NCBI GenBank assembly: GCA_937969265.1
Contig: CALBWF010000043.1
Location: 830 to 64,829 of the forward strand
Length of the DNA stretch: 64,000 bases
Source of the DNA: an uncultured Porphyromonadaceae bacterium
GTDB lineage: Bacteria > Bacteroidota > Bacteroidia > Bacteroidales > Muribaculaceae
Reading direction: 5' to 3'
The notes under the pieces were generated by a model. The model made no database searches, had not been told where the DNA came from, and saw nothing but the letters and a program-made list of their open reading frames with translations. The translations under genes and the position numbers were made by a program. Positions 18,947-45,654 of the stretch are shown piece by piece (the first letter of the stretch is position 1; every line of letters begins with the position of its first letter).

Positions 18947-19972
18947 ATGCGGCCCCGGCCTGTCGTTTTCCCTCGGACGCGGAAGAATCCTGATTTCTTG
19001 TCCCGTGCCCGCTGGCACGATTATCGCTCGCGATGCATATATATGGTGACCTTGTCGGCGGCGGAAGGCTCGCCCAGGTTTTCCGAAGTCATAGGCTGGG
19101 CCAATGCTGAGGGAATCTCAGCGGGTGTCAGGCTCCTGCCCGCAGGGGCATTGATTGAAAGGGAAATTGTTCGGTTGCCGGAACGCTACCCGGTCGTTAA
19201 GGTGCTGGCCCATTGCGTGATGTCGGACCATCTGCATATCGTTATATTCATCAAAGAACGGACAGAGACAAGTCTGCCCCGGATTGTCGCCGCCTTTGAG
19301 GCCGGGTGCACCAAAGCGTTTCGGGAAAGTTTCCCGGATTCGCGGTTGTCCCTGGCCGGAGGAAGCCTGTTTGCCAAAGGGTTCAACGACAGGATAGTGC
19401 GGGGCCGGGGAGAGGCAGATGCTTTCTGCCGGTATGTTGAGGATAATCCGAAGCGATATTATCTTCGGAAAAACCACCCCGAATATTTCGACCGCTGCCG
19501 GATTATAACGGTAAACGGTCGGGAACTGGCAGCATACGGGAATCTGTTGTTGCTCCGCCATTGTGTCAAGTGCGCGGTTAAAGTCAGCCGGTCGCTGACT
19601 CCCGAAGAGACAGTCGGCTGTGAAAGAGCCTGGAGCGAGACCATTAGGAGCAGGGGCGTGCTTGTGTCGCCGTTTATAAGTCAGGGGGAGAAAGAGGTAT
19701 TCCGCGAGGCAGTCGAAGGAGTGGCTGGCATAATCCATATTCTGCCCAATGGCTTTCCCGAGCGGTTCAAGCCTTCTGGCAGAGAGTTTGAACTTTGCGC
19801 GGCCGGGCGGTTGCTTTTAATCGCGCCTGTCGAATACGATACCAGGAGAGCAGTTGTCTCGCGGGAGCAATGCCTGGCGATGAACGAGCTGGCGGCGCTT
19901 GTCGCCGCCAACGGCCTGAGCCTGGCGGTCAGGCGGGAGCCGCGCTCTGGTTCAAACCGCGCCGCTCGCTAA
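18947..19972 (+). CDS. HUH/Y1 (IS200/IS605 TnpA / RayT-like) transposase-like protein with unassigned C-terminal extension (341 aa), copy Y1a
   Basis: HUH motif SDHLHIVIF and Tyr-helix motif FCRYVEDNPKRYY. Paralog of 30178..31167. Followed by a family palindrome. Confidence 0.8.
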   Translation: MRPRPVVFPRTRKNPDFLSRARWHDYRSRCIYMVTLSAAEGSPRFSEVIGWANAEGISAGVRLLPAGALIEREIVRLPERYPVVKVLAHCVMSDHLHIVIFIKERTETSLPRIVAAFEAGCTKAFRESFPDSRLSLAGGSLFAKGFNDRIVRGRGEADAFCRYVEDNPKRYYLRKNHPEYFDRCRIITVNGRELAAYGNLLLLRHCVKCAVKVSRSLTPEETVGCERAWSETIRSRGVLVSPFISQGEKEVFREAVEGVAGIIHILPNGFPERFKPSGREFELCAAGRLLLIAPVEYDTRRAVVSREQCLAMNELAALVAANGLSLAVRREPRSGSNRAAR

Positions 19973-19974
19973 AG
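19957..19974 (+). repeat. 18-nt partial copy of the palindrome arm (CCGCGCCGCTCGCTAAAG) covering the Y1a stop codon
   Basis: Identical to 20001..20018. Confidence 0.85.
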
Positions 19975-19999
19975 GGCAATGCTCGCCGCTAACAGCAAA

Positions 20000-20159
20000 C
20001 CCGCGCCGCTCGCTAAAGCTCGCTCCACCCGACAGGCTGCGCGTTCTTTATCCTCTTGTTTTCTCCCTCTCCCCTCCTTCTCTTCTTCTTTTTCCTCTTT
20101 CTCCTTAGCCTTTCGCGCGCAGCCTGTCGGGTGGAGCGAGCTTTAGCGAGCGGCGCGGG
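20000..20159. repeat. Foldback palindrome HP1: perfect 44-bp arms (20000-20043 / 20116-20159), 72-nt pyrimidine-rich loop
   Basis: The reverse complement of the left arm, checked base by base, equals the right arm. The loop is almost pure C/T on the + strand. Confidence 0.95.
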
Positions 20160-21453
20160 GGCGGTTGGCGGCGCGGGGGTAGAGGAGGGTCTGGAGGGCG
20201 CCGCGGGCGAAGAGGTAGGAGATGAAGGCGAGCCAGAGGGCGTGGTTGCCGAGGGAGGGGAAGAGGAGGTACTGGAGGAGGAAGAAGATGGCGGAGGCTC
20301 CGGCCATGCTGAGCAGGAGGGGGCGCGTCAGGGTCGCGCCGATGTAGACCCCGTCCCAGACGAAGGCCCCGAAGCCGCAAATGGGGATGCTGACGGCCCA
20401 CAGGGCGTATTCGCGGCTCGCGGCGAGCACGTCCCGGTCGGAGCTTAGGATGCCGAGAAACGATTCTCCGCCGAGAAAATATATGGCTGTGAAGACCAGT
20501 GCCAGGGCGAGGCCCCAGCGCATCGTGGCCTTTATCATCGCGTCGAGGCTGCGGCGGTCACGGGCCCCGGTGAAACGCCCGGCGAGGGCTTCGGCGGCGA
20601 AGGCGAAGCCGTCCATGACATAGGAAAAGAGGAGGAAGAGCTGCATCAGCAGGGTATTGACTGCGAGAATCACGGAGCCTTGCGAGGCTCCGGCGCGGGT
20701 GAACCACATCGTGACGGCCATAAGGCATACCGTGCGCAGCATCACGTCGAAGTTCACTTTGAAGAAGCGCCGCAGTTCCTCCCATCGCGCGATTTCCCTC
20801 CATCCGCACCGTTGCAGCCGGTAGCGCCGCAGAAACAGCAGTGAGACGGCCAGCCCGACCCATTGCGCTGTCAGCGTGCCGCACGCTATCCCCGGAATCC
20901 CCATCCGCAGGGCGTAGACGAGCGTCAGGCTCGCGGCGATGTTCGACAGGTTTACTGCCAGGGATGTCCACATCAGCACCCGCGAGTTCTGCATGCCGAG
21001 AAACCAGCCGGAGAGGGCGTAGGTCCCCAGCATCGCCGGCGCGCCGTAAATCAGAATCCTGAAATACTGCCTCGCGAGCGCCTCGGCTCCCGCGTCGGGC
21101 GACGCGAGCCACAGCAGCCCGTATTCCAGCGGCCGTTGGAGAAGGATAAGCGCCACGCCCGCTCCGAAGGCTACCAGCAGCGAGCGCCGCAGAATCAGCG
21201 ACTGGGCGCGGGTGTCGGCGGCTCCGCAAGCCTGCCCCGCGAGGCCCGAGGTCCCGGCGCGGAGGAAGGAGAAGAACCAGTAGACCATGTTGAACATGAC
21301 GCTCCCCACGGCGATTGCGGCAAGAAACACGGCGCTCCCCATATGCCCCGCGATGGCCGTGTCGACCAGCCCCAGGAGGGGCGTGGTGATGTTGGCCGCG
21401 ATGGAGGGTATGGCGAGCGCCAGTATTTTCCGGTTAAGGCCGGAGAGTTTCAT
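20143..21453 (-). CDS. MATE family efflux transporter (436 aa)
   Basis: N-terminus KILALAIPSIAANITTPLLGLVDTAIAGHMG and 12-TM-like hydrophobic profile. The last codons lie in the HP1 right arm. Confidence 0.9.
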   Translation of the reverse strand: MKLSGLNRKILALAIPSIAANITTPLLGLVDTAIAGHMGSAVFLAAIAVGSVMFNMVYWFFSFLRAGTSGLAGQACGAADTRAQSLILRRSLLVAFGAGVALILLQRPLEYGLLWLASPDAGAEALARQYFRILIYGAPAMLGTYALSGWFLGMQNSRVLMWTSLAVNLSNIAASLTLVYALRMGIPGIACGTLTAQWVGLAVSLLFLRRYRLQRCGWREIARWEELRRFFKVNFDVMLRTVCLMAVTMWFTRAGASQGSVILAVNTLLMQLFLLFSYVMDGFAFAAEALAGRFTGARDRRSLDAMIKATMRWGLALALVFTAIYFLGGESFLGILSSDRDVLAASREYALWAVSIPICGFGAFVWDGVYIGATLTRPLLLSMAGASAIFFLLQYLLFPSLGNHALWLAFISYLFARGALQTLLYPRAANRPRAAR

Positions 21454-30177: not shown

Positions 30178-31167
30178 TTATAACGCCGCTCCGCGTACCG
30201 AAAGTGCCAGCTCTCCGGCGGCAATCTCCTCCGCGAGCCGGTTCATCGCAAGGCACGTTTCCCTCGAAACGGTCTGTCGGCGGCAGCTTGTCACGGTTGG
30301 CGAGACAATCAGAAGCCTCCCCTCGGCGCATAGGTCGAAGTCGCGGCCCGAGGGCTTGAACCGCTCCGGGAAGCCGTCAGGCACGATATGGATAACGCTC
30401 GCTCCGGCTTCCAACCCCTTGTCGCGCACGGCTTTCTCCGGTTTGCTGATGAAAGGGGAAACGATAACGCCACGCCCGCGCATAACCTCTTCCCATTCGC
30501 TGTACCGGCGCCGCGTTTCCTCTTCGGAGAATGTGCGGCTGAGCCTTACGGCGCTTGTCAGGCAGTGGCGCAGAAGGAGGAAGTTGCCGAAGGCGTTATA
30601 TTCCTTGCCGTTGATTAGCAGCGTTATGCGCCTATTGAAAAATTCCGGGCGAGTCTGTTTGAGGTAGAGCCTTCGGGGATTGTCGGCGACATAGCGGTTG
30701 AAGTTGTTGAGCTGCCCCTCTTTGTAGACAATGCGGTCGTTGAACCCCTTGGTGAAAACAGAGCCGGATTCCCGCAAAACCGGCAGGTCGGGGAAAGCCT
30801 TCTGTATCTCTTTGTCGCAAAGCTGTTTGAGGGAGCCGACGATGTGGCCGAGGTCGATGTTCGTCTTCTCCTTTACGAAGATTACGAAATGGATATGGTC
30901 CGGCATCACTACGCTGCTGAGAATGTCGGCGAACGGGTAGCGGACATGCAGTGCTGAGACGCGGGAAGCGATGATTTCTCCAACCGGGGTAGGAACAGCC
31001 CTCGCTTCCGCTCCCTGAGGCCCGATATTCCCTTCGATTCTTGAAAAGCGGGGAGCTCCCTTCGCCGCGGTAATGGTAAACATGTATATCCGGCGGCCGT
31101 AATAGTCGTTCCAGGACGCCCGCGCCAGGAAATCCGGATTTTTGCGGCTGAGGTAGGGAGAGGGCAT
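30178..31167 (-). CDS. HUH/Y1 (IS200/IS605 TnpA / RayT-like) transposase-like protein with unassigned C-terminal extension (329 aa), copy Y1b
   Basis: HUH motif PDHIHFVIF and Tyr-helix motif FNRYVADNPRRLY. Collinear with Y1a over its full length (RKNPDFL, KGFNDRIV, LLLRHC, VSPFIS, GFPERFKPSGR, CLAMN). Confidence 0.8.
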   Translation of the reverse strand: MPSPYLSRKNPDFLARASWNDYYGRRIYMFTITAAKGAPRFSRIEGNIGPQGAEARAVPTPVGEIIASRVSALHVRYPFADILSSVVMPDHIHFVIFVKEKTNIDLGHIVGSLKQLCDKEIQKAFPDLPVLRESGSVFTKGFNDRIVYKEGQLNNFNRYVADNPRRLYLKQTRPEFFNRRITLLINGKEYNAFGNFLLLRHCLTSAVRLSRTFSEEETRRRYSEWEEVMRGRGVIVSPFISKPEKAVRDKGLEAGASVIHIVPDGFPERFKPSGRDFDLCAEGRLLIVSPTVTSCRRQTVSRETCLAMNRLAEEIAAGELALSVRGAAL

Positions 31168-31237: not shown

Positions 31238-31386
31238 GGAAGCCGCTCGCCTTCGGCTCGCTCCACCCGACATTCGGGGACAGGAGTTACGGGAGCCTGG
31301 CGAATAGGCAAGGAAGAGAAAGGGAGAAGGAAGGGGAACAGGCGTATTGGATGTTGGGTGGAGCGAGCCGAAGGCGAGCGGCTTCC
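31238..31386. repeat. Foldback palindrome HP2: 36-bp arms (31238-31273 / 31351-31386, 35/36 paired), 77-nt loop purine-rich on + strand
   Basis: Reverse-complement check done by hand. Shares GCCGCTCGC and GCTCGCTCCACCCGACA with the HP1 arms. Confidence 0.95.
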
Positions 31387-31440
31387 TATTGCCGTGCTTC
31401 CTATTGCCGTGCTTCCTATTGCCGTGCTTCCTATTGTTGT
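31381..31440 (+). repeat. 15-bp tandem repeat GCTTCCTATTGCCGT, 3 perfect copies plus 1 degenerate
   Basis: Read directly. The first unit overlaps the end of the HP2 right arm. Confidence 0.95.
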
Positions 31441-31448
31441 CGGGCTTC

Positions 31449-39910: not shown

Positions 39911-39941
39911 GCACCGGGACAAAAGCCCTCCGGCGCGGTAT

Positions 39942-39983
39942 CTTCTTCACCTTTCACCCTTCACTCTCTCTTCACCCTTCACC
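39942..39983 (-). repeat. Degenerate heptad array GTGAANN (about 5 units, minus-strand reading)
   Basis: Plus strand CTTCTTCACCTTTCACCCTTCACTCTCTCTTCACCCTTCACC. Shares an 18-mer with 45574..45654. Confidence 0.85.
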
Positions 39984-39993
39984 AAATATCGCC

Positions 39994-40464: not shown

Positions 40465-40580
40465 CGGAGCGGCGGAGCCGCGGTGTAATTGTAGCCCCAG
40501 GTCGAGCGACCTTAGGGAGCGATGGCCTGGGGTTTGGTCGGCCGCAATGTAGCGGCTTCGGAGAAGTCGTATAATAAAAG
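40465..40580 (+). repeat. Structured repeat X, copy A
   Basis: Homologous to the reverse complement of 45195..45310 (CGGAGCGGCGGAGCCGCGGTGTAATTGTAGC ... TCGAGCG ... CGGCTTCGGAGAAGTCG.TAATAAAA). Confidence 0.8.
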
Positions 40581-40595
40581 GATATAAAGGAGTTA

Positions 40596-40724
40596 CACAC
40601 AGATTTTTATGGTCGCTTCGCTCCCCACGGATGCGACGGATAAACACGGATTTTTGGGAATGATGTTTTTCTACCACGGGCCCGCACCCTATGCGCTCCA
40701 TGCGGATGCGGCGGATTGGTGCGG
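40596..40724 (+). repeat. Repeat R1, copy A (two ACGGAT/GCGGAT triplet modules)
   Basis: Identical 21-mer and 27-mer blocks shared with 45337..45553. Confidence 0.9.
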
Positions 40725-40819: not shown

Positions 40820-43800
40820 TCAGAAGCGGACTTTCCAGGCGCGGTTGGCGGCGCGGACGATGTAGAGCCCGGCGGGGAGGGCGATTTCCTCCTCGGTGTA
40901 GGAGGGAGCGAGGTAAACCATCCTGCCGTCGGCGGAATAGACTTCTATGCGCGCCCCGCAAGCGTTCCTTACGATATAGCCGTCCGGGGTCTTGACAAGA
41001 GTGTAAGCCGAAGGAGCGTTGACGGTATCGATACCGCTCATGTCCTTGACGGTAAGGACGCAGGTCGCTTCCGCGTTGCCGTCGGCGCTGCGGACAGTGA
41101 TGGTCGCGGTGCCCTCTTTCAGGCCGGTTACCAGGCCATCGCCGTCAACATCAGCCACGCTGACATCCGAGCTTTCCCAAACCAGCGCCTGATTGGTGGC
41201 GTTCGCGGGGAGTATGGTCGCCGACAGTTGCAGCGTTGAGCCGACATTCACCTCAGCTTCGGTGGCATTCAACTCTATCGCGGCAACCAATACGGCTGAC
41301 ATCTCCTCAACGAAGAAGAAATCCTTCCATTGCGGAGCGGCTCTATATTCGTCGCTGCTCTCTGCGGGAACATAAAGCGCACATTCCCACTTGTTTATGT
41401 CATCGAGCGCCTGGTTGCCGCAGACAGGAGGAACGATGGAATAGGAATAATACTTGGTAAGCCCGGTGCAGTCGGAGAACGCCTCGTCGCCGATGCTCTC
41501 TACGTTATAGCCTGCCGAGAAATAGTCAAGCGAAGAGCAGCCCGAGAAAGCCCATTTGCCAATCTTCTTGACCCCGTTGCCGATTTTCAGCGAGTTAAGA
41601 CCCGAGCAGCCGTAAAATTCGTTATCGTAAATCTCGGTTTCCGCATCCGTTATCTCCACTGTCCGCAGCGAGGTGTTGCGGTAGAACGGCGAATAACCAT
41701 AATTGGAACCAGTCTTATATGACAGCTTGCGACCGATATACACCTCGTCAAGCGGGCAGTCGGCAAACAGCGGGCTTGAGCCGTTGGAACCCAATGTTAT
41801 ATAAGCGGTATTAATAGATGAAGCTCCTTTTAGCCAAATATCGGAGACGACAACCCGGTCTTGCCCGGAATTACTTGACGAATCTTTGGTGTAAGAGAGG
41901 TACAAGGTTATTTGGCCGGCCTCGGAGAATTGATAACGAAAACTGTCTGATTTCTTGCCGCTTGCCTTTATTGCCTCCGAGCCATTGATTTTCGCAATGA
42001 AGAAATCATATCCGGATTCACTATCTACCGAATAATTGAATGTTAGAACGGCTCCAGCTTTCGCATCAAGCAGGTATTCCTGATGTGATTCAGAATTGTC
42101 TGCGTGGTTTGATGACGTCCAATCGGGATATTGTATGTTTGTCGGTTCTTCGATTTCGGGTGCTTCCTTATCATCGTCTTCAATAGAGATGTCGGAGAGC
42201 GACGAGCAACCCTCAAATGCGTAATCTGAGATGGAGGTTACATTGTTCGGTATCGAAATTGATTCAAGCGAGGAGCATCCCGAAAAGACTTTTGTAGGCA
42301 GCGAGGGGAAGCCTGCCCCGAGAGTGGCGCTTTTCAACGCGCTACACCCCTGGAATGCTGAAGCGCCCAAAGAAGTTACGGAATTAGGAATAACGATTTC
42401 GGGAATTGCTGAGCATCCGTAAAATGCGTTTTCGGAGATTCCGGTAACCTCATTTCCAAGTTTTACTTGGTTCAGCGCTTTATCATTGTAAAACGCGCAT
42501 TCTCCGATATTTCCCTTGTTCTCGATAGTTGCGGTTTGCAATGAAGTGCATCCGTAGAAAGAAGAGTTTCCTATATTTCCTGTGTTTTTGATGGTAGCCG
42601 TCTGCAAGGCGGTACAACCATAGAAAGCGGAGCTGCCGATACTTCCATTATTTGCAAGAGTGACAGTTTGCAGACTTTCGCATCCTTGGAAAACATCCTC
42701 TCCGATATTACCATTGTTGGAAACATTAGCAGTCAGAATCTTGCTGCAATTACGAAAAGCATCATTGCCAATATCCCCTTTGTTTGAAGCTGTTAGCGAT
42801 GTTAAATGCCCGCAATTATAGAAAGCGTAACTTCCTACGAAGCCAATATTAGAAAGGGTTAGCGATTCAATGTTGCTGTTGTTGTAAAATGAGTATTGTC
42901 GGATATTATTTACCGTCATCTCAATGCCTTTGTTGGTAACTTTATCAGAAATGACTGGTGTGGTATAAGTGGGGTTATAAAGGCAGTCTACGACATCGCA
43001 AGTGCGCTCCGAAGGGCTGACGGGGACATAAATTGTTCCATCAACTGTGAATTTGGAGCTGAGGAACTGATATTTGATTTGATTGTTCAGGTTGTATTGG
43101 TCATTAGACACATAGTTTACATATGCGTTAACTTCTCCATAACCGGATGGAGGGGTATTCCCTAACCAAAAAGCCTTGGCGATTCGATGGTTATTGCTTG
43201 TAAAGGCGTATGATCCGATAGAAAGAAGTCCTGAGCCGAATGTAACAGATTTTAATCTATTTTCATAAAAGGAGCGTTCACCGATAGAGGTGACGGAGTT
43301 GGGGATTGTTAGACCCTGAATCTTGCTGCCGTTGTACAGGAAGTAATCGGGAATCTTGGTGACATTGTCGCCAATCGTCAGGGAAGAGATAGACGAGGGG
43401 AAAGCGGGATAATAAGAAGAGCCGCAAGTTGCGCAGTTTGTAGCATTGAAAGCGAGGGATTCGAGGGAGGAGCAGTCCCTAAAAGCGTAGCCCCCGATGG
43501 AGGTTACGGCGTTGGGGATTACGACGGATGTCAGGGAGGAGCATCCGTCGAAAGCGTAGTCGCCGATGGAGGTTACGGCGTTGGGGATTTCGACGGAGGC
43601 CAGAGAGAAACAGCCGAGGAAAGCGCTTTTGCCGATGGAGGTTACGGCGTTGGGAATTACGACGGAGGCCAGGGAGGTGCAGTGGGCGAAAGCGCCGAAG
43701 CCGATGGAGGTTATTGTGTTTGGTATAGTATAGCCATCCGAAAGGGTCATTGGAGCGTAATATACCTTTGTGATGTCTTTATCATAAATTACCCCTGCTT

Positions 43801-44647
43801 CATCTATAAGGCAATCAGAGGGGTATGCGATTTTGAAACCAGAACTGAATGGGTTACTTATTGAAGAAGGATATGCGCTCTTTTTAAGGCCGCTACAGCC
43901 GTAGAAAGCGTCGTCGCCGATGGAGGTTACGGAGTTGGGGATTACGACGGATGCCAGGGAGGAGCAGCCGTAGAAAGCGTCGTTGCCGATGGATGTTACG
44001 GAGTTGGGGATTTCTACGGAGGCCAGGGAGGCGCAGTTACGGAAAGCGTAGGAGCCGATGGAGGTGACAGAGTTAGGGATTGAGAGATTCTGAATCTTGC
44101 AGCCGTTGTACAGGAAGTAATCGGGAATCTTGGTGACATTGTCGCCAATCGTCAGGGAAGAGATAGACGAGGGGAAAGCGGGATAATAAGAAGAGCCGCA
44201 AGTTGCGCAGTTTGTAGCATTGAAAGCGAGGGATTCGAGGGAGGAGCAGCCGTAGAAAGCGTAGTTGCCGATGGATGTTACGGAGTTGGGGATTTCTACG
44301 GATGTGAGGGATGAGCAGTAGTAGAAAGCGTCGTTGCCGATGGATGTCACGGAGTTGGGGATTACGACGGAGGCCAGGGAGGCGCAGTATCTGAAAGCGT
44401 CGTGGCCGATGAAGGTTACGGCGTAGGTTTTGCCGTTATATTCAACTGAAGATGGGATTATGACAGAGCCGCTATATTCATTTGAGTATGAGTTATAAGA
44501 GCTGCCGCGAAAAGTTACGGCGGCGGTGTTGTCGGATGAGGAGGTGATGTCGTAGTAGATGCCGTCGACTTCGAAGTCGTGGGGGGAGGCGGCGAGGGTG
44601 GCGGTGAGGGCGAAGGGGAGGAGGAGTTTTCGCAAGAGGGGTGACAT
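40820..44647 (-). CDS. BspA-type leucine-rich-repeat surface protein with Big_2-like domain and T9SS C-terminal sorting domain (1275 aa)
   Basis: Start set at MSPLLRKLLLPFALTATLAASP (signal peptide). Dozens of IPNSVTSIG..AF..C.SL repeats. Big_2-like LNATEAEVNVGSTLQLSATILPANATNQALVWESSDVSVADV. CTD ending LYIVRAANRAWKVRF. Confidence 0.88.
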   Translation of the reverse strand: MSPLLRKLLLPFALTATLAASPHDFEVDGIYYDITSSSDNTAAVTFRGSSYNSYSNEYSGSVIIPSSVEYNGKTYAVTFIGHDAFRYCASLASVVIPNSVTSIGNDAFYYCSSLTSVEIPNSVTSIGNYAFYGCSSLESLAFNATNCATCGSSYYPAFPSSISSLTIGDNVTKIPDYFLYNGCKIQNLSIPNSVTSIGSYAFRNCASLASVEIPNSVTSIGNDAFYGCSSLASVVIPNSVTSIGDDAFYGCSGLKKSAYPSSISNPFSSGFKIAYPSDCLIDEAGVIYDKDITKVYYAPMTLSDGYTIPNTITSIGFGAFAHCTSLASVVIPNAVTSIGKSAFLGCFSLASVEIPNAVTSIGDYAFDGCSSLTSVVIPNAVTSIGGYAFRDCSSLESLAFNATNCATCGSSYYPAFPSSISSLTIGDNVTKIPDYFLYNGSKIQGLTIPNSVTSIGERSFYENRLKSVTFGSGLLSIGSYAFTSNNHRIAKAFWLGNTPPSGYGEVNAYVNYVSNDQYNLNNQIKYQFLSSKFTVDGTIYVPVSPSERTCDVVDCLYNPTYTTPVISDKVTNKGIEMTVNNIRQYSFYNNSNIESLTLSNIGFVGSYAFYNCGHLTSLTASNKGDIGNDAFRNCSKILTANVSNNGNIGEDVFQGCESLQTVTLANNGSIGSSAFYGCTALQTATIKNTGNIGNSSFYGCTSLQTATIENKGNIGECAFYNDKALNQVKLGNEVTGISENAFYGCSAIPEIVIPNSVTSLGASAFQGCSALKSATLGAGFPSLPTKVFSGCSSLESISIPNNVTSISDYAFEGCSSLSDISIEDDDKEAPEIEEPTNIQYPDWTSSNHADNSESHQEYLLDAKAGAVLTFNYSVDSESGYDFFIAKINGSEAIKASGKKSDSFRYQFSEAGQITLYLSYTKDSSSNSGQDRVVVSDIWLKGASSINTAYITLGSNGSSPLFADCPLDEVYIGRKLSYKTGSNYGYSPFYRNTSLRTVEITDAETEIYDNEFYGCSGLNSLKIGNGVKKIGKWAFSGCSSLDYFSAGYNVESIGDEAFSDCTGLTKYYSYSIVPPVCGNQALDDINKWECALYVPAESSDEYRAAPQWKDFFFVEEMSAVLVAAIELNATEAEVNVGSTLQLSATILPANATNQALVWESSDVSVADVDGDGLVTGLKEGTATITVRSADGNAEATCVLTVKDMSGIDTVNAPSAYTLVKTPDGYIVRNACGARIEVYSADGRMVYLAPSYTEEEIALPAGLYIVRAANRAWKVRF
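43316..43475 (-). repeat. Intragenic ~159-bp direct repeat, copy 2
   Basis: Differs from 44090..44249 at a single position. Confidence 0.9.
44090..44249 (-). repeat. Intragenic ~159-bp direct repeat, copy 1
   Basis: See 43316..43475. The offset of 774 bp is in frame. Confidence 0.9.
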
Positions 44648-45057
44648 TGGGTTGGTTCGGTGCCGCGGGACTCCTCTCGTTGGCGTTGGGGGTTGGAGAC
44701 GGAAAGACGTGGGAGTCTGTACTGCTGCCGTCCCACCGTCAGAGGCTTCTCGCATTGCCTATACCCGTCGGACGGCAACGCCAGAAGCCCACGCCAGTAT
44801 ATGCAACGGACGCTTGCGGCGGGTTCCTCACGAAACGGGCCGCGGCGGATGTTACACACCAACGGGCATCTACCGTTGCTCAATCCTTGACGGGCTGGGA
44901 AATTTTGCGAGAATTTCTGACGGTCAAGAACTAAGCGTTAGTAACGCCTTTCATATTTGCCGCGGCGGGGGCGCAGGGCCTCCGGGCGGTTGTCGCATCC
45001 CTCCCGCTCGCCCACACCGAACTAACTGGCGCGGGGCGGCGTTGCGGTCTGCGTCGG

Positions 45058-45130: not shown

Positions 45131-45190
45131 GTAATCCGTGTTAATCTGTCGCATCCGTGGGGAGCTTGCGACCATAAAAATCTGTGTGTC
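45131..45190 (-). repeat. Repeat R1, truncated inverted copy B'
   Basis: The reverse complement equals the first 43 nt of copy B exactly, then continues imperfectly. Confidence 0.9.
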
Positions 45191-45194
45191 AACC

Positions 45195-45310: not shown

Positions 45311-45336
45311 AAATATAGGGGATTGGATGCGTCTGA

Positions 45337-45553
45337 CACACAGATTTTTATGGTCGCAAGCTCCCCACGGATGCGACGGATAAACACTGATCTTTGAGAG
45401 GGATGCTTTCTACCACGGTCCCGCACCCTACGGGCGCTCCTCTCTGGGTCTGCCACTTCCACCGCGCCTCGCCTCTCCGAGGCTCGACACGGTGTTACTC
45501 ACGGACACGCACCCTCCGGGCGCTCCATACGGATGCGGCAGATATACACGGAT
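45337..45553 (+). repeat. Repeat R1, copy B (with internal ~85-nt duplication/insertion)
   Basis: CACACAGATTTTTATGGTCGC and CTCCCCACGGATGCGACGGATAAACAC are identical to copy A. GCACCCT(A/C)CGGGCGCTCC occurs twice. Confidence 0.9.
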
Positions 45554-45573
45554 TTAGGGAGGCTGCACCTCCA

Positions 45574-45654
45574 TCTTTCACATTCTCCTTCACTCTTCAC
45601 TCTTCACCCTTCATTATTCACTATTCACTTCACCTTTCACCCTTCACTTTTCAC
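45574..45654 (-). repeat. Degenerate heptad array GTGAANN (about 11 units, minus-strand reading)
   Basis: Minus strand GTGAAAAGTGAAGGGTGAAAGGTGAAGTGAATAGTGAATAATGAAGGGTGAAGAGTGAAGAGTGAAGG... Confidence 0.9.

What the first reader, a model, noticed from the sequence alone, without database searches (positions are those of the whole stretch)
31238..31386. The two foldbacks are one sequence family and keep the same strand polarity relative to their Y1 gene
Both left arms read GCCGCTCGC-(4-6 nt)-GCTCGCTCCACCCGACA. The outer parts of the arms and the loops differ. In both cases the loop is pyrimidine-rich on the coding strand of the adjacent Y1 gene (+ for HP1, - for HP2), although one element is 3' and the other 5' of its gene. 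A fixed strand polarity is what one expects for substrates of single-strand-specific HUH enzymes. It is not expected for simple terminators.
Basis: seen in the sequence. Interest (0 to 1): 0.65.

Follow-up and report, generated by a model that had tools for sequence, protein, structure and literature searches.

The report
REP-type foldbacks beside RAYT-like genes
The two foldbacks are inverted pairs of a short repeat scattered through the genomes of a group of rodent-gut Bacteroidales, each sitting next to its own tyrosine (HUH) single-strand DNA nuclease gene; this is a variant of the known REP/RAYT "domesticated transposase" arrangement rather than a new kind of element.

Summary
HP1 (20000-20159) and HP2 (31238-31386) are near-perfect foldbacks. 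They share the core GCCGCTCGC-N4/5-GCTCGCTCCACCCGACA, and each loop is pyrimidine-rich on the coding strand of the adjacent Y1 gene.

They are not a private pair. The same core is a dispersed intergenic repeat in related gut MAGs and is 10-60x over-represented in rodent-gut assemblies. The Y1 genes are 50%-identical paralogues of a large family (more than 1000 clusters at 50% identity). Each protein has an IS200/RAYT-type HUH domain with an intact HUH motif and catalytic tyrosine, fused to a C-terminal domain whose predicted fold resembles DprA, a single-strand DNA binder.

The genes keep their chromosomal neighbours across species. Three Y1 clades each carry their own repeat subtype, and more distant homologues carry unrelated foldbacks. 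This is the REPtron/REPIN pattern.

The polarity argument is weaker. Both strands of an inverted pair carry both arms. Among relatives, loops lean pyrimidine-rich (9 of 13) but one is clearly purine-rich, and the wider family shows no bias.

Verdict: a new variant of the REP/RAYT kind, of moderate interest. An unexpected extra is that the 20-nt core is identical in GTAG-tagged REPs of Planctomycetota, Acidobacteriota and Verrucomicrobiota, where it flanks a different, short Y1 gene.

The parts
18947..19972 (+). Y1-1 gene, 341 aa. It is a long-form RAYT-like HUH tyrosine nuclease with an N-terminal IS200/RAYT fold and a C-terminal domain whose predicted fold resembles DprA.
   Evidence: Pfam Y1_Tnp 32.6 bits (cut-off 23). 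NCBIfam REP_Tyr_transpos 38.8 bits, below the cut-off of 80. HUH motif (DHLH) and catalytic Tyr (RYVEDNP) are invariant columns in alignment A2. Orthologues at 65-96% identity keep the neighbours S41 peptidase - Y1 - MatE - OPT.
19957..19996 (+). Degenerate single copy of the repeat (C-rich strand) that overlaps the Y1-1 stop codon. The protein ends ..GCC GCT CGC TAA = AAR*.
   Evidence: The first 18 nt, CCGCGCCGCTCGCTAAAG, repeat exactly at 20001-20018 (pair I7). In orthologues L199 and L208 a full repeat copy overlaps the stop codon in the same way.
20000..20043 (+). HP1 left arm (C-rich strand of the repeat; the GACA tag faces the loop).
20044..20115 (+). HP1 loop, 72 nt, low-complexity, 93% pyrimidine on the + strand.
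   Evidence: The loop sequence differs in orthologues: it diverges from about nt 11 in L002, and L208 has an unrelated loop (about 70% pyrimidine).
20116..20159 (+). HP1 right arm (G-rich strand of the repeat). It contains the stop codon (20143-20145, - strand) of the convergent MatE-like gene 20143-21453.
   Evidence: The MatE assignment comes from the orthologous loci L199, L204 and L208 (PF01554).
30178..31167 (-). Y1-2 gene, 329 aa, a paralogue of Y1-1 (50% identity) with the same two-domain architecture.
   Evidence: Pfam Y1_Tnp 27.6 bits; BLASTP. AF2 model pLDDT 88; the N-terminal half matches ISDra2/IS608 TnpA and RAYT 4er8. C-terminal domain model pLDDT 91; its top 12 PDB matches are all DprA. 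The 96% orthologue in L001 has the same TamB-like neighbour.
31238..31273 (+). HP2 arm nearest the Y1-2 gene (C-rich strand on +, so the G-rich strand lies on the Y1-2 coding strand).
31274..31350 (+). HP2 loop, 77 nt, purine-rich on + and pyrimidine-rich on the Y1-2 coding strand.
   Evidence: Some copies in metagenome contigs carry a 24-nt loop instead (joint 31272->31352).
31351..31386 (+). HP2 arm farthest from the gene. It has one mismatch (A for G) in the core.
31382..31441 (+). 15-nt tandem repeat CTTCCTATTGCCGTG, about 4 copies, starting inside the end of the HP2 arm. Copy number varies between samples.
   Evidence: (joint 31407->31441, skipping 33 nt, in two runs).

Best explanation
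HP1 and HP2 are inverted doublets (REPIN/BIME-like) of a REP-type repeat. This repeat is the cognate single-strand DNA partner of the adjacent long-form RAYT-like Y1 genes.

The repeat unit, read on the G-rich strand, is [C/T]GTC-GGGTGGA-(GC..triloop..GC mini-hairpin)-GAGCGG. A single unit folds weakly. Two inverted units give a very stable cruciform or foldback whenever the DNA is single-stranded.

Inferred mechanism, by analogy with E. coli TnpA-REP and IS608/ISDra2 TnpA: the enzyme binds the unit on single-stranded DNA through its HUH domain, helped by the DprA-like C-terminal domain. It then cuts and rejoins next to the unit, which spreads and maintains the copies. The genes themselves stay at fixed chromosomal sites and are inherited vertically.

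Shown here: repeat family membership, dispersal, gene-repeat co-variation, conserved neighbours, intact catalytic motifs, and the predicted folds.

Inferred: binding, cleavage, mobility, and any role for the pyrimidine-rich loops. I regard the loops as fast-evolving low-complexity spacers.
For: 1. Same core in all four arms; chance is excluded.

2. The core is a dispersed intergenic repeat in related gut MAGs: at least 7 sites in MGBC128759, 4 in MGBC112435, 3 copies at 2 loci in MGBC158299, and 2 in a MAG labelled Alistipes. Arm regions have word depth 100-700 against about 10 for the flanks in rodent-gut assemblies. Contigs of close relatives break inside the arms.

3. Y1 clade and repeat subtype co-vary:
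- Clade A (Y1-1, P0010, P0015, P0006, P0009) goes with GCGCCGCTCGC-TAAA/TGAA-...GACAGG.
- Clade B (Y1-2, P0001) goes with GGAAGCCGCTCGC-CTTCG-...
- Clade C (P0005, P0012) goes with GGGAAGCC.CTCGC-TTAC-...GACGG.
- P0016 and P0025 have more diverged units of the same layout.

4. More distant homologues are flanked by unrelated foldbacks or palindromes, sometimes on both sides (L118, L119, L122, L126, L130).

5. Neighbouring genes are conserved across orthologues of 65-96% identity.

6. HUH motif and catalytic Tyr are invariant. The fold matches IS200/IS605 TnpA and RAYT 4er8. The C-terminal domain's top PDB matches are DprA, TM 0.50-0.52 normalised to the query.

7. The variable centre of the unit keeps a mini-hairpin. 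First and last bases pair in 30 of 31 family copies (11 of 12 distinct variants) against 5 of 21 in chance hits.

8. No terminator T-run. I saw no direct repeats at the outer ends of the arms that would mark a target-site duplication (read).
Against: - No biochemical or mobility evidence exists.
- Single arms do not fold better than shuffled sequence (z -1.3 to +1.1), and the tag is [C/T]GTC rather than the GTAG of classical REPs.
- Both proteins score below NCBIfam's RAYT cut-off.
- In the window each gene has repeat copies on one side only.
- Dispersed copies in relatives are mostly single units.
- The copy number in the window's own genome is unknown.
- The same 20-nt core also flanks a different, short Y1 gene in other phyla, so the enzyme-repeat assignment is not unique in principle.
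Confidence: 0.72

Rival explanations
1. The foldbacks are mainly RNA-level elements: transcription terminators, insulators, or mRNA-stabilising 3' hairpins for the flanking genes. Their closeness to Y1 genes would be incidental or regulatory.
For: HP1 lies between convergent genes and overlaps both 3' ends. HP2 lies between two genes on the same strand. Classical REPs are known to act in this way (PMC3733652).
Against: No T-run follows either arm on either strand. The 72-77-nt loops and 36-44-nt perfect arms are unlike intrinsic terminators. This reading does not explain why repeat subtype tracks Y1 clade, or why unrelated foldbacks flank distant Y1 homologues. RNA contigs were uninformative. 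This role could still coexist with the main explanation.
Confidence: 0.1
2. Each Y1 gene plus its hairpin is an autonomous IS200/IS605-type insertion sequence, and the foldback is its end.
For: The N-terminal domain has the IS200/IS605 TnpA fold. IS200/IS605 ends are subterminal hairpins.
Against: The genes keep the same neighbours across orthologues of 65-96% identity. The two copies in the window are only 50% identical. A hairpin is present on one side only. No tnpB gene is adjacent. The repeat is dispersed without the gene (1 of more than 110 repeat loci carries a Y1 homologue).
Confidence: 0.04
3. The dispersed repeat is serviced by another factor, either a short subclass-1.2-type Y1 enzyme as in Planctomycetota or a host DNA-binding protein. 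The long-form Y1 genes would merely be frequent landing sites.
For: The identical 20-nt core flanks 148-aa Y1 genes carrying the YIKRQEEHH motif in L038, L027 and L065. The window also holds a GTAG-tagged REP of that style at 40491-40532.
Against: No short Y1 gene is present in the window or in any gut locus fetched. Repeat subtypes co-vary with long-form Y1 clades, and the repeat overlaps their stop codons in several orthologues.
Confidence: 0.1
4. The shared loop polarity reflects strand-specific processing. The foldback would be used only when the Y1 coding strand is the single-stranded lagging-strand template.
For: Five of six strongly biased loops next to close homologues are pyrimidine-rich on the coding strand: HP1, HP2, L200, L118 and L130, against L054. 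L204/205 and L213 also have pyrimidine tracts 5' of the gene.
Against: L054 is clearly opposite (0.21), and four loops are neutral. There is no bias across the wider family. Both strands of a doublet carry both arms (PMC3333891). Replication direction cannot be read from the window, because GC skew follows gene strand.
Confidence: 0.15

Closest known systems
REPIN-RAYT systems (Bertels & Rainey 2011, PMC3116915) and E. coli REPtrons/BIMEs with TnpA-REP (Ton-Hoang et al. 2012, PMC3333891; structure 4er8)
   Same: A Y1 HUH gene that keeps its chromosomal position (one gene per clade at each locus examined) is flanked by copies of a short repeat. The repeat is dispersed through the genome and often paired in inverted orientation into a long hairpin. 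Gene clade and repeat type co-vary. No target-site duplication was noted at the arm ends.
   Different: The protein is about 330 aa, with an extra C-terminal domain of about 150 aa whose predicted fold resembles DprA, and it scores below NCBIfam's RAYT cut-off. The unit has a [C/T]GTC tag instead of GTAG and only a 2-4-bp mini-hairpin, so a single unit is not a stable palindrome. Doublets have the tags facing the loop, with 30-125-nt low-complexity spacers. Several paralogous gene/repeat pairs occur in one lineage.
TIRtrons / TIRYTs (Di Nocera et al. 2013, PMC3733652)
   Same: RAYT-like genes are flanked by long inverted repeats unrelated to GTAG REPs. These repeats form moderately abundant families and are often arranged as dimers.
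   Different: Those proteins and repeats were described in Proteobacteria and Acidobacteria. In the text I read there is no C-terminal DprA-like domain, and no sequence relation was tested. In the window the repeat is present on one side of each gene only.
IS200/IS605 family (IS608, ISDra2 TnpA)
   Same: The catalytic domain has the same fold (Foldseek E 6e-6), and the DNA partner is hairpin-forming.
   Different: The window's unit is not mobile as a whole, has no tnpB, has no left and right ends on one strand, and has fixed genomic neighbours.
TnpA-Y1 subclasses with large C-terminal domains (Quentin et al. 2018, PMC6006769: subclasses 2.1 and 2.3) and the Bacteroidetes subclass 2.6
   Same: These are class-2-type Y1 proteins (Y..NP motif). 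Some are long, and subclass 2.6 is flanked by atypical secondary structures in Bacteroidetes.
   Different: The motif signatures differ. Here they are DH[IL]H and YV.DNP at about 330 aa. Subclass 2.3 has NHYH / YVDLNP with no REP, and subclass 2.6 has NH[LIV]H / YIH[QN]NP at 179 aa. I compared only the signatures printed in the paper's table, not its HMMs.

Membership tests
REPIN/RAYT (REPtron) | Adjacent gene encodes a Y1 HUH enzyme with an HUH motif, a catalytic Tyr and the RAYT-type Y..NP motif. | tested here: met
   Pfam Y1_Tnp above its cut-off. H90/H92, Y158, N162 and P163 are invariant in A2. Fold matches to 2xm3, 2vjv and 4er8.
REPIN/RAYT (REPtron) | Protein passes the curated NCBIfam equivalog model REP_Tyr_transpos. 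| tested here: not met
   38.8 and 47.9 bits against a cut-off of 80. The protein is a relative, not an equivalog.
REPIN/RAYT (REPtron) | Gene is flanked by copies of its repeat. | tested here: met
   Window: on one side of each gene. Relatives: on both sides in L054, L199 and L209; on one side in L197, L200 and L208.
REPIN/RAYT (REPtron) | Repeat is dispersed in many copies in the same genome. | tested here: inconclusive
   Multi-copy in related MAGs and 10-60x depth in metagenome assemblies. The window's own genome could not be scanned, and the 64-kb window holds only the two foldbacks.
REPIN/RAYT (REPtron) | The repeat unit is itself a short imperfect palindrome with a 5' GTAG tag. | tested here: not met
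   Single arms fold no better than shuffles. The tag is [C/T]GTC. Only a 2-4-bp mini-hairpin is conserved.
REPIN/RAYT (REPtron) | Gene is single-copy per type and vertically inherited at a fixed locus. | tested here: met
   Neighbours are conserved for Y1-1 orthologues (L002, L199, L204, L208) and the Y1-2 orthologue (L001).
REPIN/RAYT (REPtron) | Enzyme binds and cleaves the single-stranded repeat. | not testable with these tools
   Needs purified protein and oligonucleotides.
IS200/IS605 insertion sequence | Gene plus both hairpin ends moves as a unit and occurs in several near-identical copies, often with tnpB. | tested here: not met
   The paralogues are 50% identical. Neighbours are fixed. 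A hairpin is on one side only. The neighbouring genes are S41 peptidase, MatE and TamB, not tnpB.
Intrinsic terminator | Short G+C-rich stem with a small loop, followed by a T-run. | tested here: not met
   The terminator scan reports nothing at either foldback. Loops are 72-77 nt.
Quentin et al. 2018 TnpA-Y1 subclasses 2.3 / 2.6 | Subclass HuH and Y-motif signatures and length. | tested here: not met
   DH[IL]H / YV.DNP / about 330 aa here, against NHYH / YVDLNP (2.3) and NH[LIV]H / YIH[QN]NP / 179 aa (2.6), as printed in the paper's Table 1. Only signatures were compared.
DprA (C-terminal domain only) | DprA Rossmann-like single-strand DNA-binding fold; membership of Pfam DNA_processg_A. | tested here: inconclusive
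   Fold: the top 12 PDB matches are DprA, with probability 0.98-1.0, TM 0.50-0.52 (normalised to the query) and E 4e-3 to 6e-2. Sequence: no Pfam hit. A profile search finds 1518 clusters, and the 150 best listed nearly all share this protein's architecture; DprA-length proteins do not stand out among them.

The most novel reading that the evidence does not exclude
The repeat core (GGGTGGAGCGAGC-N3-8-GCGAGCG) is an ancient, exchangeable single-strand DNA module. It is identical over 20 nt in gut Bacteroidales, where it flanks a Y1-DprA-like fusion, and in GTAG-tagged REPs of Planctomycetota, Acidobacteriota and Verrucomicrobiota, where it flanks an unrelated 148-aa Y1 enzyme. If so, two different Y1 lineages, or a shared host factor, recognise the same module. 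The fusion enzyme would load on it strand-specifically at replication forks, which would also explain the pyrimidine-rich loops on the coding strand.
Probability: 0.15. Interest if true: 0.7.

Novelty: new variant of a known kind. Interest (0 to 1): 0.45.

Why it matters
REP/RAYT systems are known and studied almost only in Proteobacteria. This finding points to a large, unannotated family (more than 1000 clusters at 50% identity) of RAYT-like enzymes fused to a predicted DprA-like single-strand DNA-binding domain. Members seen here come mainly from gut and other metagenomes, and those closest to the window are labelled Bacteroidales. Each clade has its own foldback repeat.

Three consequences follow:
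- It explains why assemblies of these abundant rodent-gut bacteria break at such sites.
- It offers several paralogous enzyme/repeat pairs in one lineage for testing how Y1 enzymes read their DNA.
- It raises the question of why a 20-nt repeat core is conserved across four phyla.

It does not reveal a new kind of element.

Tried and rejected
- Rfam scan of the whole window: only three tRNAs, nothing at the foldbacks.
- Promoter and terminator scans: nothing at either foldback.
- Search of the window for further or degenerate core copies, and for the two other repeat families seen in relatives: none.
- RNA evidence: only assembled contigs were available. They showed arm copies in other contexts and could not show transcript ends.
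- Raw reads to test loop inversion or excision: none were available. Contigs show only that the arms are multi-copy and that some copies carry a 24-nt loop.
- Replication direction from GC skew: rejected, because the skew flips with gene strand at about 20, 38 and 52 kb.
- Gene-proximal arm orientation as an independent polarity test: rejected. A doublet with tags facing the loop reads the same on both strands, so only single copies count, and 4 of 5 of those fit the REPtron pattern.
- CGTC-tagged REP families of Di Nocera et al.: rejected as a match, because those have 8-9-bp stems with 4-5-nt loops.
- Sequence-level link of the C-terminal domain to DprA: not found.
- Literature searches for DprA with RAYT, and for REPs in Muribaculaceae: no papers.

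Full report
**1. The observation**

Two long foldbacks exist exactly as described.
- HP1 has 44-nt arms at 20000-20043 and 20116-20159, perfectly complementary, with a 72-nt loop.
- HP2 has 36-nt arms at 31238-31273 and 31351-31386, 97% complementary, with a 77-nt loop.

As single-stranded DNA they fold far better than shuffled sequence, with z = -12.9 and -9.4. The arms share GCCGCTCGC, then 4 nt (TAAA) or 5 nt (CTTCG), then GCTCGCTCCACCCGACA. The 17-mer core occurs four times in the window against 0.39 expected. Outer arm parts and loops differ.

The loops are the two largest purine/pyrimidine-biased tracts in the window. Each is pyrimidine-rich on the coding strand of its neighbouring gene, at 0.93 and 0.79.

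The neighbouring genes are 18947-19972 (+) and 30178-31167 (-). Both pass Pfam's Y1_Tnp cut-off and are 50% identical over their full length.

**2. The arms belong to a dispersed repeat family**

I scanned one genome per species with CGCTCGC-N3-8-GCTCGCTCCACCC. The hits fall into two classes.

Class (a) has the window's form, GCCGCTCGC-N4-6-GCTCGCTCCACCCGAC[AG]. It occurs in four gut MAGs, three labelled Muribaculaceae and one labelled Alistipes:
- at least 7 sites in MGBC128759;
- 4 sites in MGBC112435;
- 3 copies at 2 loci in MGBC158299;
- 2 sites in the Alistipes-labelled MAG.

These copies are intergenic. Most are single units rather than foldbacks, and only one locus (L054) carries a Y1 homologue.

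Sequencing runs that hold the region are rat and mouse gut metagenomes. In their assemblies the arm segments have summed word depth of 100-700 against about 10 for the unique flanks. Many contigs end in the arms, and some copies have a 24-nt loop. Contigs carrying the closest orthologues of both Y1 genes also break inside the foldbacks.

**3. The genes**

Both proteins have an intact HUH motif (DHLH / DHIH) and the tyrosine motif RYV.DNP. These residues are invariant in a 16-member alignment.

A confident AlphaFold model (pLDDT 88) matches ISDra2 and IS608 transposases and the E. coli REP-associated transposase 4er8 over the N-terminal half. The C-terminal 150 residues have no Pfam hit. A model of that domain alone (pLDDT 91) has DprA as its twelve best PDB matches, with probability 0.98-1.0, TM 0.50-0.52 and 19-21% identity. 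Nothing else comes close. DprA is a single-strand DNA-binding protein. The resemblance is structural only, and I treat it as moderately supported.

A profile of the domain finds 1518 clusters (at 50% identity) among 1.8 billion representatives. Nearly all of the 150 best listed are proteins of about 300-350 aa with the domain at the C-terminus. The proteins score below NCBIfam's RAYT cut-off. Their motif signatures fit none of the subclasses printed in Quentin et al. 2018.

**4. Gene-repeat linkage**

By pairwise identity the closest homologues fall into clades.
- Clade A is Y1-1 with P0008, P0010, P0015, P0007, P0006 and P0009.
- Clade B is Y1-2 with P0001, P0002 and P0003.
- Clade C is P0004, P0005, P0011 and P0012.

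Clade A genes keep the neighbours S41 peptidase - Y1 - MatE - OPT in L002, L199, L204/205 and L208. The clade B orthologue keeps its TamB-like neighbour. These genes are therefore resident, not hopping.

Each clade carries its own repeat subtype.
- Clade A has ..GCGCCGCTCGC-TAAA/TGAA-..CCCGACAGG.
- Clade B has GGAAGCCGCTCGC-CTTCG-...
- Clade C has GGGAAGCC.CTCGC-TTAC-..GACGG.

P0016 and P0025 have more diverged units with the same layout: a left flank, a mini-hairpin, TC..AC.C, then a GAC/TAC tag. More distant homologues from a metagenome scan are flanked by unrelated foldbacks or palindromes. Examples are L118 (47-nt arms), L119 (one family on both sides), L122/L142, L126 and L130.

The position of the repeat around orthologous clade A genes varies.
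- In the window it is 3' (a degenerate single copy plus a doublet).
- In L208 it is 3' (a doublet).
- In L199 it is a 5' doublet plus a 3' single copy.
- In L204/205 it is a 5' single copy plus a pyrimidine tract.

This variation shows turnover. In the window, L199 and L208 the repeat supplies the stop codon of the Y1 gene. In the window and L208 it also supplies the stop codon of the convergent MatE gene.

All of this is the REPtron/REPIN pattern described for RAYTs (PMC3116915, PMC3333891, PMC3733652).

**5. Anatomy of the unit**

The variable centre between the two GCGAGC motifs behaves as a mini-hairpin. Where it is 5 nt or longer, its first and last bases pair in 30 of 31 family copies (11 of 12 distinct variants, with both C-G and G-C closures). 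In chance hits to the same pattern they pair in 5 of 21.

Single arms are nevertheless not stable hairpins (z -1.3 to +1.1). The strong structure needs the doublet. All doublets of this family have the [C/T]GTC/GAC[AG] tags facing the loop. I saw no direct repeats at the outer ends of the arms that would mark a target-site duplication (read). There is no T-run after either arm.

**6. Polarity**

Thirteen foldbacks lie next to Y1 homologues. On the coding strand, the loop pyrimidine fractions are as follows.

| Foldback | Pyrimidine fraction of loop |
|---|---|
| HP1 | 0.93 |
| L200 | 0.81 |
| HP2 | 0.79 |
| L130 | 0.77 |
| L118 | 0.71 |
| L208 | 0.67 |
| L197 | 0.62 |
| L209 | 0.62 |
| L126 | 0.59 |
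| L199 | 0.47 |
| L119 (5') | 0.46 |
| L119 (3') | 0.45 |
| L054 | 0.21 |

That is 9 against 4, with one clear exception, and HP1 and L208 are orthologous so they are not independent. In the wider family, strongly biased 40-nt tracts within 300 nt of the gene are pyrimidine-rich 8 times and purine-rich 12 times.

Dispersed single copies tend to sit on the purine-rich strand of their surroundings.

Mechanistically, an inverted doublet carries a unit and its complement on each strand. E. coli TnpA-REP cleaves BIMEs on both strands (PMC3333891). Enzyme strand specificity therefore does not predict a fixed loop orientation. Replication direction cannot be inferred from the window, because GC skew follows gene strand.

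I conclude that the polarity is a trend among close relatives whose cause is unknown.

**7. An unexpected relative**

Class (b) hits of the genome scan are GTAG-tagged REPs of the form G(G/T)TAG-CCAGGGG-TGGAGCGAGC-N3-5-GCGAGCG(C/G)AA-CCCCTGG. They occur in Gemmataceae and other Planctomycetota, in Pyrinomonadaceae/Blastocatellia, and in Verrucomicrobiota. They share all 20 specified bases with the window's arms, including identical centre variants such as CGAAG, and they fold significantly (z -3.2).

In L038, L027 and L065 they flank a 148-aa Y1 gene with the motif YIKRQEEHH, which is the signature of Quentin's subclass 1.2. That protein is not detectably similar to the long-form proteins by BLASTP (E about 0.5). 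Identity over 20 nt cannot be chance. Whether it reflects common descent, exchange, or a shared constraint is open. The window itself holds one GTAG-tagged REP of this style at 40491-40532.

**8. Verdict**

The foldbacks are REP-type inverted doublets. They are cognate to long-form RAYT-like Y1 genes in a rodent-gut Bacteroidales lineage, probably Muribaculaceae (inferred from the labels of the closest relatives).

- Family membership, dispersal, co-variation, conserved neighbours and folds are shown.
- Binding, cleavage and mobility are inferred by analogy.

This is a new variant of a known kind. Its interest is moderate and rests mainly on the uncharacterised fusion enzyme family and the cross-phylum repeat core.

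Noticed in passing
window 45134-45191 / 45334-45391; half copy at 40604-40637: A third, unrelated foldback has 58-nt arms (95% complementary) and a 142-nt spacer, in a long intergenic region. One arm recurs as a single copy 4.5 kb upstream, so this is a second repeat family in the window.
   Followed up: partly
window 40491-40532: GTAG-CCCCAGG-(24 nt: TCGAGCGACCTTAGGGAGCGATGG)-CCTGGGG is a GTAG-tagged REP. It is built like the Planctomycetota/Acidobacteriota REPs that share the foldback core.
   Followed up: partly
L038 1566-2260; L027 3019-3542; L065 1427-2127 (also L075, L082, L090): GTAG-tagged REPs in Planctomycetota, Acidobacteriota and Verrucomicrobiota share 20 nt with the window's arms. 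They flank 148-aa Y1 genes with the YIKRQEEHH motif. Quentin et al. 2018 list that subclass (1.2) as having no REPs.
   Followed up: partly
window 39938-39984 and 45566-45650: Pyrimidine-rich low-complexity tracts built from TTCACC-like units lie in intergenic regions. The same kind of tract follows other arm copies in metagenome contigs and in L022.
   Followed up: no
window 43379-43422 and 44153-44196: An identical 44-nt purine-rich segment occurs twice inside the 1311-aa ORF 40820-44755. This marks an internal repeat in a large protein, within a low-GC stretch (0.46 at 42-44 kb).
   Followed up: no
window 31382-31441: A 15-nt tandem repeat (CTTCCTATTGCCGTG, about 4 copies) starts inside the end of the HP2 arm. 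Two rodent-gut metagenome assemblies carry a version 33 nt shorter.
   Followed up: partly
window 19970-19972 and 20143-20145: The stop codons of Y1-1 and of the convergent MatE-like gene both lie in the TAAA centre of a repeat copy, so both proteins end in AAR. Compared with the L204 orthologue, the MatE C-terminus is about 9 residues longer and reads into the element.
   Followed up: partly
L078, L080, L102, L107; L118 3747-3871: A second repeat family, CTTCGCTCGGCTTACGCCTCGCGCACC, often follows HP1-type units in related MAGs, giving a mosaic, BIME-like arrangement. It also forms the 47-nt arms of the foldback 5' of a different Y1 homologue (L118). It is absent from the window.
   Followed up: partly
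L085 1882-1908 and 3637-3663: The cultured Xylanibacter ruminicola D31d has two intergenic copies of CCCCGCTCGCT(A/G)GAGCGCTCGCTCCACCCACCCTCGC flanking a 526-aa ORF. This may be a related repeat in an organism that can be grown.
   Followed up: no
window 1-64000: GC and AT skew switch sign with gene-strand blocks (at about 20, 38 and 52 kb) rather than showing one replication-related trend. Coding strands are C- and A-rich.
   Followed up: no
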